From NCBI GenBank assembly GCA_009914755.4, contig CP068257.2, positions 40,096,001 to 40,160,000 on the forward strand: DNA of 64,000 bases. The letters run 5' to 3'. The DNA is from the human T2T-CHM13v2.0 reference genome, Homo sapiens. Positions 41,163-43,544 of the stretch are shown here, in pieces. Below the pieces are notes generated by a model that searched no databases, was not told the DNA's origin, and saw only the letters and a program-made list of their open reading frames with translations. A program made the position numbers and the translations under genes. Position 1 is the first letter of the stretch, and every line of letters starts with the position of its first letter.

Positions 41163-41228
41163 CTGCCAAGGGAAGGATGCGAGTCAGGGGCTCTGCAGGG
41201 CTGGGTGGCAGCATCTCACCCTTGGGAG
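41163..41228 (-). ncRNA. MIR6814: MIR6814 precursor hairpin, a 5'-tailed mirtron ending exactly at the 3' splice site of RIPK4 intron 4
   Basis: The minus-strand sequence tcccaagggtgagatgctgcca (41227-41206) and actcgcatccttcccttggcag (41184-41163) form the two arms of a ~15-bp stem with a 21-nt loop. The 3' arm ends on the intron's AG acceptor. The arms match what I recall as miR-6814-5p and miR-6814-3p. Confidence 0.6.
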
Positions 41229-43544
41229 GAAACGACACACTCGCCGGGGGCCACAATGGGGCCATCCCCACACCACCCCAGGGAGACGGCTCCCCCACTC
41301 CGTTTCAAAGGCAGAGCTTCCTGTAACCCTCACCCTCATGGTGCGCCATGCTCTCTAGTTTCCTGGTTTTGAAATCGACCTCTTTCCCTGGGTTCTGATC
41401 TACCAGAAGGAGTCAGTGTGTTTGGTCACAGAGCAGATCTTTCTAGGCATCCCATCCAAAGGAAGATGAGGTTCAAAGGAGAACAATATCTTATGAGGCT
41501 CATTCCATCAACAGCCCAAGCCAGCAAAGGGAATGAGGCTCACGCACCATGGAGGAGCCACAGCGTCCTACATCCACAGAGACCCAACTCTCTCTACAAT
41601 GGCGAAGAAGTCTTCCTCAGTTCCAACTCCAATCCCCAGCTCAGGTCCCCAGCTGGCCTCCCCTGCCGGTGCACCAGGGCTGGGATGTGTGGAAGGGCTC
41701 TTTCCCCTCAATTCACCATGTGGGGCCGCACCTGTCCTTTCCAACTGCCTTCACTAGCATGCATGGGCTCTAGCTTATTATTATTATTGCCACAACTTCT
41801 ACCCTGACTGGGAAGGGCCCAGGGTGACATCCAGTGGGCCAAGTTCTTTTTTCTGCTTAGCCTGGAACCCTCAAGGTTCTTGTTCCCAACAGCCCTCTCT
41901 GCCCTCCAGATCCAAACACACCCACGCATGGAATGGCAGCTCTTTGGAGAGGCCATGTGCCTCAGCAGGTGTGGAAAATCAGCCGAGAATCACCCACGGC
42001 TGCCAGGATTCCATACAATGTTTTGCTCCACTTTCCCATTAAATCTTGTGCAATAAATATCGTTAAGTGTTTAGCAGGCTATTTCCATGATTATTCAGAC
42101 TTCAAAACCAACAGCTCCTCTAAATAAAATGGAAGCAAACTGAAGTAAACGCCCGGAATGTTTCCTGCTGCCAAGCACAGACTGGAAAAGCTGGGGAGAG
42201 GCCTTGTTCTCCTGCACCTTGAACCCCCTCCTACCCATTTTTGCCTGAGGTTGCAATTTTTTGAATTTGAAAAATCAGACCTTGGCGATGACCTTGAACA
42301 GTAGGACACGAATAATTCCCATATGATTAGCGTTCCAATAAGGGAACACTAGGCATATTCAGCAATAAAGCACAAGGGCTTGAGCCTTGACCTGTCCCCT
42401 GCGCCTAGCTTCGGGTGTCACATCTATCAGACACTGCCTCATTTCACAAGCCTTCGGGCTGTAGGCCACTGTGCGGGAGAACGTACAGAAGGCAAGAAAG
42501 GCGACAGGCGGTCAGACAACACAGACGGACACCGGCCAGCAGAGGCCTGGCAGGACGCGTTCTGTGCTTTCTACTGACATTCTTTTAAAGCTGCCAAGAT
42601 ACTTGATCTTGCGATGCTGGAAGATCTCTTCTCACCCCAGCACTTTCCCATACATCGGCTCCTAGTCTGAGCCCCGACTAACAAGGGGCTAGGCCTTGAC
42701 TCTCATCTTCATTTTTAGACATTTTCGGTCACACCACAAAATATCATGAGTAGCCCAGAAATGTCTTTAGAGGAAAAGGGAATCTGTCCAACAAAGCTAA
42801 AAAGTCCTGGATTTTTATGATAAGTAAGTCAAGGTGTGACAACTTTGAGGATGGTGTTCGGAATGGTGGCTGCCTGGCTGGGGAAGCAAACACCACAGCT
42901 CTCAAGCTGGGCAGGGGTGCCACTCCTGCAAGCAACTCCATGGCACTGAGCAGCTCTGGAGGTTGGCTGCGCAAGCACGCGGGTACATGTAATGCTCCTG
43001 AACTGTATGCTTCACACGGCTGACATGCTAAGTTTTGTTCTGTGTATTTTATGACTATTTTTTTAAAAAGTAAACAAAAAAGAATTAGCTGGAAATACCA
43101 GCACAGGCAAACCCCTGGAGACAGAAAGCAGGTGAGTGGTTGCTGGGGCTTGAGCAGGAGGAAGGGCGAGGGACTGCAGAATGGCCATGGGCTTTGCCTT
43201 CTAGCATGATGAGAATGTTCTGGAATTAGACAGTGGTAACGCTTGTTCAACACTGCCAGTGTAGTTAATGTCACTCAATTATACACTTTAAATGGCTAAC
43301 ATGACCAATTTTATGTTATATATATTTTACTACCACAAAAAAACTAGCTGGCACCTAAAAACATTCCATTGAACAGGCCCCTTCAGATCTGTGTCTTTTC
43401 CTGCATGCAAATTACACCACAGAGCAGCACCTATGGCAGCGTGGATCACAGGCTCTGTTTTAGGATAGAGAAAGGACAACAAGGTGTCCCCCCATTATTC
43501 CAGGAAAGACAAGCACATTACACCTCAAAGACAGGTCCACTCAC

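What the first reader, a model, noticed from the sequence alone, without database searches (positions are those of the whole stretch)
41163..41232. 5'-tailed mirtron hairpin (MIR6814) terminating exactly on the intron 4 acceptor of RIPK4
On the transcript strand the last 66 nt of intron 4 read tcccaagggtgagatgctgcca-[21-nt loop]-actcgcatccttcccttggcag|AT(exon 5). The two 22-nt arms pair with about 15 Watson-Crick/GU pairs. The 3' arm ends on the splice-acceptor AG, so splicing defines the hairpin's 3' end while its 5' end lies inside the 2.4-kb intron. This is the signature of a 5'-tailed mirtron, not a canonical Drosha-cut hairpin or a whole-intron mirtron. Both arm sequences match what I remember of hsa-miR-6814-5p/3p. 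The 3p arm also overlaps the branchpoint/polypyrimidine/AG region of the exon 5 acceptor, so variants here could affect both the miRNA and RIPK4 splicing.
Basis: partly seen in the sequence, partly recalled or inferred. Interest (0 to 1): 0.65.

Follow-up and report, generated by a model that had tools for sequence, protein, structure and literature searches.

The report
Known RIPK4 intronic mirtron, hsa-mir-6814
The last 65 bases of intron 4 of human RIPK4 are the already catalogued microRNA locus hsa-mir-6814, published as a "5'-tailed mirtron"; it is a weak, evolutionarily young and very lowly expressed example, so the finding is correct but not new.

Summary
On the minus strand, 41227-41163 reads UCCCAAGGGUGAGAUGCUGCCA, then a 21-nt loop, then ACUCGCAUCCUUCCCUUGGCAG. 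It ends on the acceptor AG of a 2382-nt GT-AG intron between the 4th and 5th coding exons of RIPK4. Both arms, the 65-nt hairpin length, the 2382-nt intron length, the host gene and the class "5p-tailed mirtron" match the hsa-mir-6814 row in Wen et al. 2015 (PMC4556696, S2 Table).

The locus is marginal:
- The sense hairpin (-19.3 kcal/mol, z -0.9) folds no better than shuffles or GC-matched windows.
- It does not appear in the best fold of 150-nt contexts.
- It shows no covariation across 11 mammals and folds well only in human and owl monkey among those sampled.
- It rests on 97 reads (12 from Ago-IP) pooled over many libraries.
- I found no locus-specific Drosha, Dicer or splicing test.

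The overlap with splicing signals is real. The only branch-point motif (CUGAC) has its A at -22, which is the first base of miR-6814-3p. The motif's U, A and final C are invariant in all 11 mammals.

One unexpected result: the antisense strand folds far better (-32.3 kcal/mol, z -2.9).

Novelty: already known. Interest: low.

The parts
41163..41227 (-). hsa-mir-6814 hairpin (65 nt), the last 65 nt of RIPK4 intron 4
   Evidence: Sequence. Fold: -19.3 kcal/mol, 7-bp and 5-bp arm helices. Identical in length and arms to the hsa-mir-6814 row of Wen 2015 S2 Table.
41206..41227 (-). miR-6814-5p, UCCCAAGGGUGAGAUGCUGCCA. Its 5' end lies inside the intron and must be made by tail removal.
   Evidence: Unique exact match. 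Wen 2015 reports 34 5p reads.
41185..41205 (-). 21-nt terminal loop region, CCCAGCCCUGCAGAGCCCCUG
41163..41184 (-). miR-6814-3p, ACUCGCAUCCUUCCCUUGGCAG. Its 3' end is the intron's last base. It is the more abundant arm.
   Evidence: Unique exact match. Wen 2015 reports 63 3p reads.
41184..41184 (-). Predicted branch-point adenosine (CUGAC, -22 from the 3' splice site). It is also the first base of miR-6814-3p.
   Evidence: It is the only yUnAy motif between -12 and -70. U42, A44 and C45 of the hairpin are invariant in 11 mammals. The branch-point function is inferred, not shown.
41168..41177 (-). Polypyrimidine run UCCUUCCCUU of the exon 5 acceptor, inside the 3p arm
   Evidence: Sequence. The run is conserved in alignment A1.
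41163..41164 (-). Splice acceptor AG of intron 4
   Evidence: Invariant in 11 mammals.
41228..43544 (-). 2317-nt 5' tail of the intron, starting with donor GT at 43544-43543
   Evidence: The 2382-nt intron length equals the value in Wen 2015.
43545..43594 (-). RIPK4 exon 4 (50 nt; ...FAIVIWGVLTQKKPFA)
41004..41162 (-). RIPK4 exon 5 (159 nt; (D)[21 protein letters not shown]...)

Best explanation
This is hsa-mir-6814, a published 5'-tailed mirtron in intron 4 of human RIPK4.

**Proposed pathway**
1. Splicing of the 2382-nt intron fixes the 3' end of the hairpin at the acceptor AG.
2. The lariat is debranched. The predicted branch A is the first base of the 3p arm.
3. The 2317-nt 5' tail is removed by a nuclease that has not yet been identified.
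4. Dicer cuts the resulting ~65-nt hairpin into a 5p/3p duplex.
5. Small amounts of that duplex reach Argonaute.

**What is shown here:** the sequence identity, the splice-site geometry and the intron length.

**What is taken from the literature:** 34 5p reads, 63 3p reads and 12 Ago-IP reads.

**What is inferred from the class and not tested for this locus:** debranching, tail removal, Dicer dependence and Drosha independence.

The locus is a weak, young, low-output member of its class. Its production should follow RIPK4 transcription. Any regulatory role is unproven.
For: - **Identity.** Arms, hairpin length (65), intron length (2382), strand, host gene and class all match Wen 2015 S2 Table.
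- **Geometry.** The acceptor AG is at the hairpin's last two bases and the donor lies 2317 nt upstream of the 5p start.
- **Pairing.** There are 15 in-register arm pairs. Arm-arm duplex energy is -20.6 kcal/mol, inside the range of 46 other 5'-tailed mirtrons from the same table (rank 35 of 46).
- **Loading.** The 5p arm starts with U and the 3p arm with A. Both are 5' bases I recall Ago2 favouring; Wen 2015 itself states only a 5'-U preference.
[quoted passage not shown] They annotated loci only when duplex reads showed a loop-side 3' overhang.
- **Host-gene co-expression.** miRNA-seq found miR-6814-5p lower in lung adenocarcinoma than in squamous carcinoma, together with miR-205, miR-944 and miR-6510 (PMC10488146). 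That RIPK4 is a squamous-epithelium gene is from my own knowledge.
Against: - **Weak fold.** The sense hairpin is thermodynamically ordinary (z -0.88; 61-63% of GC-matched windows fold as well).
- **Context.** It is absent from the minimum-energy fold of 150-nt contexts, both pre-mRNA and intron-only.
- **Few pairs.** Only 12 arm pairs form in the best fold, against a median of 16 in peer loci.
- **Low depth.** There are 97 reads pooled over hundreds of libraries. Only 7 of about 110 tabulated loci have fewer. The locus is absent from the HeLa Ago1-4 IP table.
- **No conservation of pairing.** 67.4% of cells are paired against 66.3% in shuffles, and 132 of 500 shuffles reach that value. The hairpin is weaker in orangutan and macaque and absent outside simians. 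There is no mouse Ripk4 mirtron in Wen's mouse table.
- **No functional test.** I found no locus-specific Drosha, DGCR8, Dicer or splice-site experiment.
Confidence: 0.8

Rival explanations
1. The reads are incidental intron-decay products. The end of intron 4 folds only weakly. The few 5p and 3p reads are turnover fragments of the excised intron that occasionally get diced or bound by Ago. The miRBase entry would then describe biochemical noise with no regulatory function.
For: - The read count is very low (97 in total, 12 from Ago-IP).
- The hairpin is no better than shuffles or GC-matched windows.
- There is no covariation, and the hairpin is lineage-restricted.
- 26% of AG-ending positions in the gene could offer a comparable arm pairing.
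- Shang et al. 2023 describe splicing-derived hairpins as promiscuous substrates that are actively suppressed by tailing (title and abstract; text).
Against: - Both arms were recovered as discrete ~22-nt species, and the locus passed the Lai lab's manual duplex criteria. It sits in the main sheet of the table, not the 'failed criteria' sheet.
- Some reads come from Ago-IP.
- This rival differs from the best explanation in function, not in biogenesis.
Confidence: 0.35
2. The 3p species is a Dicer-independent lariat-tail fragment. miR-6814-3p spans exactly from the conserved branch-point A (-22) to the 3' splice site. It could therefore be the lariat's linear tail released by decay and debranching rather than a Dicer product.
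For: - The 3p arm's first base is the A of the only branch-point motif, and that A is invariant in 11 mammals.
- The upper part of the duplex (5p nt 18-22 against 3p nt 1-4) is essentially unpaired.
- 3p is the dominant arm (63 against 34 reads).
Against: - It does not explain the 34 discrete 5p reads.
- Branch points commonly lie 18-35 nt from the acceptor (my own knowledge). A ~22-nt species ending at the AG will therefore often start near one by chance.
- Tested mirtrons of all classes required Dicer.
Confidence: 0.07
3. It is a canonical Drosha/DGCR8-processed intronic miRNA that merely lies next to the exon.
For: Only that it is an intronic hairpin with two annotated arms.
Against: - The 3p arm ends on the last intron base, so any basal stem would have to use exon 5 sequence.
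- Folding with flanks shows no extended lower stem, and the hairpin itself disappears.
- No Rfam miRNA family matches it.
- Wen 2015 classes it as splicing-derived.
Confidence: 0.03
4. It is a conventional or short-tailed mirtron made from an unannotated shorter intron that uses a cryptic donor near the hairpin.
For: - Wen 2015 raise this possibility for 5'-tailed mirtrons in long introns.
- A donor-like AGG|GUGAGA lies inside the 5p arm.
- A second donor-like motif, AGG|GUGAGG, lies about 170 nt upstream of the acceptor.
Against: - The 5p reads start at UCCC, not GU.
- The in-arm donor would give a 57-nt intron with only about 35 nt between donor and branch point, which I judge too short for mammalian splicing.
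- No upstream cryptic exon is evident.
Confidence: 0.03

Closest known systems
hsa-mir-6814 (miRBase name; listed by Wen et al. 2015, PLoS Comput Biol, PMC4556696, S2 Table)
   Same: Everything testable matches: both arm sequences, the 65-nt hairpin, the minus strand, the RIPK4 host gene, the 2382-nt host intron and the class '5p-tailed mirtron'.
   Different: Nothing. This is the locus itself.
Other human 5'-tailed mirtrons, such as hsa-mir-6514 (NXF1), hsa-mir-6510 (KRT15) and hsa-mir-3605 (PHC2)
   Same: - The hairpin abuts the 3' splice site and has an unstructured 5' tail.
- The host intron is under 3 kb, as for about 90% of the class.
- The 3p arm is C/U-rich and overlaps the polypyrimidine tract.
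   Different: - Far fewer reads: 97 against thousands.
- Weaker duplex: 12 pairs and -20.6 kcal/mol against medians of 16 pairs and -23.5 kcal/mol.
- An unusually G-poor 5p arm: 32% G against a median of 50%.
Conventional mirtrons, such as hsa-mir-1224 and hsa-mir-1226
   Same: They are splicing-defined, bypass Drosha as a class, and their 3p arm ends at the AG.
   Different: In those loci both hairpin ends are splice sites, and the introns are about 70-100 nt. Here only the 3' end is a splice site, and 2317 nt must be removed.
3'-tailed mirtrons (Drosophila mir-1017 type; artificial ones in Kock et al. 2015, PMC4513878)
   Same: One hairpin end is set by splicing and the other by trimming. 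The branch point can coincide with a hairpin or small-RNA end.
   Different: The polarity is opposite. Their tail is removed by the RNA exosome, whereas the 5'-tail nuclease is still unidentified.

Membership tests
hsa-mir-6814 (specific annotated locus) | 5p and 3p sequences identical to the annotated arms, in RIPK4, on the gene's strand | tested here: met
   Arms TCCCAAGGGTGAGATGCTGCCA and ACTCGCATCCTTCCCTTGGCAG in Wen 2015 S2 Table equal window 41206-41227 and 41163-41184, minus strand. The miRBase record itself was not available. The name is as used in that table.
5'-tailed mirtron | The hairpin's 3' end coincides exactly with the 3' splice site of an intron | tested here: met
   The AG at 41164-41163 forms the last two hairpin bases, and exon 5 starts at 41162. 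The 8-exon GT-AG model gives a 784-aa RIPK4 ORF.
5'-tailed mirtron | The hairpin's 5' end is internal to the intron, preceded by a tail, with no splice donor at the 5p start | tested here: met
   The 5p arm starts with UCCC at 41227. The donor GT at 43544-43543 lies 2317 nt upstream.
5'-tailed mirtron | [quoted passage not shown] | tested here: inconclusive
   - In isolation it forms 7-bp and 5-bp helices at -19.3 kcal/mol, but z is -0.88.
- 61-63% of GC-matched windows fold as well.
- It is not present in 150-nt context folds.
- It lies within the range of peer loci but in the weaker third.
5'-tailed mirtron | Small-RNA reads from both arms form a duplex with 3' overhangs (Dicer signature) | not testable with these tools
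   No read data were available here. Published counts are 34 5p and 63 3p reads. From the annotated arms and the i:65-i pairing register, the overhangs are about 1 nt at each end.
5'-tailed mirtron | Small RNAs are loaded in Argonaute | not testable with these tools
   Wen 2015 report 12 reads in Ago-IP libraries. The locus is absent from their HeLa Ago1-4 IP table.
5'-tailed mirtron | Independent of Drosha/DGCR8; dependent on splicing, debranching and Dicer | not tested
   I found no locus-specific experiment among the 27 papers that mention miR-6814. Dicer dependence was shown for other mirtrons of each class.
Canonical Drosha-dependent intronic miRNA | A stem of about 35 bp with a basal stem and single-stranded flanks on both sides of the Drosha cut | tested here: not met
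   Exon 5 begins immediately 3' of the 3p arm. No extended lower stem forms in folds with flanks.
Conventional mirtron | Both hairpin ends are splice sites, so the whole short intron is the pre-miRNA | tested here: not met
   The intron is 2382 nt and the hairpin occupies only its last 65 nt.

The most novel reading that the evidence does not exclude
The dominant species, miR-6814-3p, spans exactly from the mammal-invariant branch-point adenosine to the 3' splice site. It may therefore be a branch-point-defined, Dicer-independent lariat-tail fragment that enters Argonaute, rather than a diced hairpin arm. The sense hairpin would then be incidental. In support, the sense hairpin is statistically ordinary, while the antisense strand of the same 65 nt folds exceptionally well.
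Probability: 0.06. Interest if true: 0.45.

Novelty: already known. Interest (0 to 1): 0.1.

Why it matters
The finding matters little beyond confirming an annotation.

- **For variant interpretation.** The 22 bases 41163-41184 carry the branch-point A, the polypyrimidine tract, the acceptor AG of RIPK4 exon 5 and miR-6814-3p all at once. A variant here would most plausibly act through RIPK4 splicing, because the microRNA's output is tiny. From my own knowledge, RIPK4 loss causes Bartsocas-Papas and popliteal pterygium syndromes.
- **For biomarker studies.** Papers that report miR-6814-5p changes are probably reading out RIPK4 transcription or intron turnover.
- **For method.** This is a clear case of a registered mirtron whose hairpin cannot be told from background by structure alone. 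The call rests entirely on read evidence.

Tried and rejected
**Searches that gave nothing**
- Rfam gave no hit for the hairpin at gathering thresholds over the whole window, or at E up to 10 on 40900-41500. Only sub-threshold chance hits appeared nearby.
- A full-text search for the four arm strings found no papers.
- Supplements of Ladewig 2012 and Shang 2023 are not held as text. The original annotation table and any newer re-evaluation could not be read.

**Failed look-ups and scripts**
- Chimpanzee (P0029) and tree-shrew (P0010) RIPK4 loci were not on record. I cannot say whether the stem-strengthening G at 41220 is human-specific or shared with African apes.
- The first exon-model script timed out. 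It was replaced by a per-junction search.

**Explanations rejected** (see the rivals)
- A canonical Drosha substrate.
- A conventional mirtron.
- A short cryptic intron using the in-arm donor-like GUGAGA.
- A repeat-derived hairpin: both arms are unique in the window.
- Selection on the sense stem: there is no covariation.

**Seed overlap with miR-150.** The shared 6-mer listed by Wen (S6 Table) is out of register: miR-150 positions 3-8 against miR-6814-5p positions 1-6. It does not imply shared targets.
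Full report
**1. The observation**

On the minus strand, window 41227..41163 has three parts, 65 nt in all:
- the 22-nt arm UCCCAAGGGUGAGAUGCUGCCA;
- the 21-nt loop CCCAGCCCUGCAGAGCCCCUG;
- the 22-nt arm ACUCGCAUCCUUCCCUUGGCAG.

Its 41163-41232 span is 70 nt and adds UUUCC at the 5' end.

The final AG (41164-41163) is followed by an open reading frame, (D)[21 protein letters not shown].... 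That frame matches residues 226-277 of the mouse RIPK4 kinase domain (PDB 5wni, E 6.5e-26).

The upstream exon ends at 43545 and is followed by GTGAGT, so the intron is 43544..41163, or 2382 nt.

A per-junction search gave eight GT-AG-bounded coding exons and an uninterrupted 784-aa ORF. This intron is the fourth. The protein retrieves RIPK4 orthologues at 99% identity in orangutan and downwards.

**2. Is the hairpin more than chance?**

From sequence alone it is not.
- The 65-mer folds at -19.3 kcal/mol with z -0.88, and 40 of 200 dinucleotide shuffles fold as well.
- Among 65-nt sense windows of the gene or the whole window, 26-30% fold at least as well. Among GC-matched windows the figure is 61-63%.
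- Only 2.3% of fixed 65-nt windows reach 15 in-register pairs. Once hairpin lengths of 50-80 nt are allowed, 26% of AG-ending positions in the gene do.
- In 150-nt contexts the hairpin is not in the minimum-energy structure, either with exon 5 attached or as the excised intron end.
- No Rfam family matches.

**3. What it is**

The supplementary S2 Table of Wen et al. 2015 (PMC4556696) has the following row:
- hsa-mir-6814, chr21:43166931-43166996, minus strand;
- "5p-tailed mirtron", hairpin length 65;
- 5p TCCCAAGGGTGAGATGCTGCCA and 3p ACTCGCATCCTTCCCTTGGCAG;
- uc002yzn.1_intron_3, intron length 2382, RIPK4, NM_020639;
- reads: 97 total, 34 5p, 63 3p, 12 Ago-IP.

Arms, hairpin length, intron length, strand and host gene all equal what is in the window. 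Another paper lists MIR6814 beside RIPK4 on chr21 (PMC9409227).

The name falls in the number series that Ladewig et al. 2012 (PMC3431481) use for their new mirtrons, such as mir-6514 and mir-6869. That Ladewig 2012 is the source of the miRBase entry is my recollection and was not verified.

The finding is therefore a correct re-identification of a published locus and of its published biogenesis class.

**4. How good a mirtron is it?**

It sits at the marginal end of its class.
- **Read depth.** Its 97 reads come from data sets pooled over hundreds of libraries. Of about 110 loci in the two table parts I read, only seven have fewer. It does not appear in the HeLa Ago1-4 IP count table.
- **Duplex strength.** Its arm-arm duplex energy is -20.6 kcal/mol with 12 pairs, which ranks 35th of 46 5'-tailed mirtrons from the same table part. 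The medians are -23.5 kcal/mol and 16 pairs.
- **Composition.** Its 5p arm is among the least G-rich, at 32% against a median of 50%. The class signature is a G-rich 5p arm and a C-rich 3p arm.
- **Experiments.** The 27 papers mentioning miR-6814 are array or sequencing biomarker lists. None that I looked at tests biogenesis.
- **Expression pattern.** One miRNA-seq study places miR-6814-5p with miR-205, miR-944 and miR-6510 as lower in lung adenocarcinoma than in squamous carcinoma. This is what co-expression with a squamous-epithelium host gene would give. The RIPK4 expression pattern is from my own knowledge.

**5. Evolution**

I fetched the orthologous RIPK4 loci of ten mammals and aligned the last 100 nt of intron 4 (alignment A1).

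The intron end is fairly well conserved, with 64% mean column identity. U, A and C of the CUGAC motif (hairpin nt 42, 44, 45) are invariant in all 11 species, as are the acceptor AG and parts of the pyrimidine tract.

CUGAC is the only yUnAy motif between -12 and -70. Its A, at window 41184 and -22 from the acceptor, is very probably the branch point. It is also the first base of miR-6814-3p. This is expected for any mirtron whose 3p arm ends at the AG.

The stem itself is not conserved.

| Species | Sense MFE (kcal/mol) |
|---|---|
| Human | -19.3 |
| Owl monkey | -19.0 |
| Orangutan | -14.4 |
| Macaque | -13.4 |

No comparable hairpin forms in tarsier, lemur, galago, deer mouse, cat, orca or elephant.

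Counting the 12 stem pairs over the alignment gives 67.4% paired cells against 66.3% in column shuffles. 132 of 500 shuffles reach that value, and the covariation score is no better.

Position 8 of the 5p arm (window 41220) is G in human and owl monkey. It is A in orangutan, macaque and most outgroups. Chimpanzee was not retrievable, so the change cannot be dated more finely.

Wen's mouse table has no Ripk4 locus. This pattern fits a young locus not maintained by selection, as the mirtron literature describes for most mirtrons (abstracts of PMC5953923 and PMC12377645).

**6. Mechanism**

The best-supported reading has five steps:
1. Splicing defines the 3' end of the hairpin.
2. DBR1 debranches the lariat at or next to the 3p arm's first base.
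3. An unidentified nuclease removes the 2317-nt 5' tail. Both Wen 2015 and Shang 2023 state that this enzyme is unknown.
4. Dicer cuts the hairpin.
5. A little of the product reaches Ago.

Only the geometry is shown here. The read counts come from the literature. The enzymatic steps are inferred from the class.

The rivals are weighed in the rival-explanations section, which gives the evidence for and against each:
- non-functional decay products, which is a difference in function rather than biogenesis;
- a lariat-tail origin of the 3p species;
- a canonical Drosha substrate, rejected because there is no basal stem and the exon abuts the 3p arm;
- a cryptic short intron, rejected because 5p reads start at UCCC and the in-arm donor would give a 57-nt intron.

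**7. An unexpected side observation**

The plus (antisense) strand of the same 65 nt folds into a 22-pair hairpin.
- Its MFE is -32.3 kcal/mol, with z -2.88. None of 200 shuffles folds as well, and the MFE structure makes up 53% of the ensemble.
- This is in the top 0.33% of plus-strand windows. The 13 kcal/mol strand difference is in the extreme 0.12%.
- The hairpin survives in a 135-nt context, in both the MFE and the centroid structure.
- It is also strong in macaque (-28.9) and orangutan (-24.4).

Part of the difference arises because A-C mismatches on the sense RNA become G-U pairs on the antisense RNA.

The published reads are sense-strand sequences, so this does not change the annotation. 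I have no evidence of antisense transcription, and the observation remains unexplained.

**8. Verdict**

- The finding is already known.
- Interest is low.

Noticed in passing
window 41163-41227, plus strand (antisense to RIPK4): The reverse complement of the mir-6814 hairpin folds far better than the annotated sense strand.
- MFE is -32.3 against -19.3 kcal/mol, with z -2.88 and no shuffle out of 200 folding as well.
- It is in the top 0.33% of plus-strand windows, and the strand difference is in the extreme 0.12%.
- It is retained in a 135-nt context.
- It is also strong in macaque (-28.9) and orangutan (-24.4).

I have no evidence that this strand is transcribed.
   Followed up: partly
window 41214-41222, minus strand (inside the 5p arm): There is a 5'-splice-site-like motif, AGG|GUGAGA. 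GTGAGA is kept in human, orangutan, macaque, owl monkey, lemur and deer mouse, and degraded to ATGAG or ATAAG in the others. Used with the exon 5 acceptor it would give a 57-nt intron, which I judge too short to be functional. Its significance is unknown.
   Followed up: partly
window 41225-41230, minus strand (-63 to -68 from the exon 5 acceptor): The pyrimidine block TCCTCC spans the 5' boundary of the hairpin, two bases before it and four bases into the 5p arm. It is at least 90% conserved across 11 placental mammals although the stem it belongs to is not. It may be a splicing regulatory element rather than a microRNA feature.
   Followed up: no
window 41220, minus strand (5p arm position 8): This position is G in human and owl monkey but A in orangutan, macaque and most outgroups. 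The G creates a G-C pair and accounts for much of the human hairpin's extra stability. Chimpanzee and gorilla could not be checked.
   Followed up: partly
window 43545-43594, minus strand: RIPK4 exon 4 is only 50 nt long. It is flanked by introns of 1893 and 2382 nt.
   Followed up: no
window 38688-38855: There is a GC-rich 32-nt tandem repeat of 5.2 copies at 77% match. It lies inside RIPK4 intron 6, between exon 6 (ends 40150) and exon 7 (starts 38531), and looks like a minisatellite.
   Followed up: no
window 30249-30444 and 27214-27267: There are two long microsatellites downstream of RIPK4, outside the gene: (CTT)65 and (AC)27.
   Followed up: no
window 40956-41067, minus strand (exon 5 / intron 5 boundary): There is a sub-threshold Rfam match to mir-623, at 21.7 bits against a gathering score of 70, E 0.07. 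I treated it as chance.
   Followed up: no
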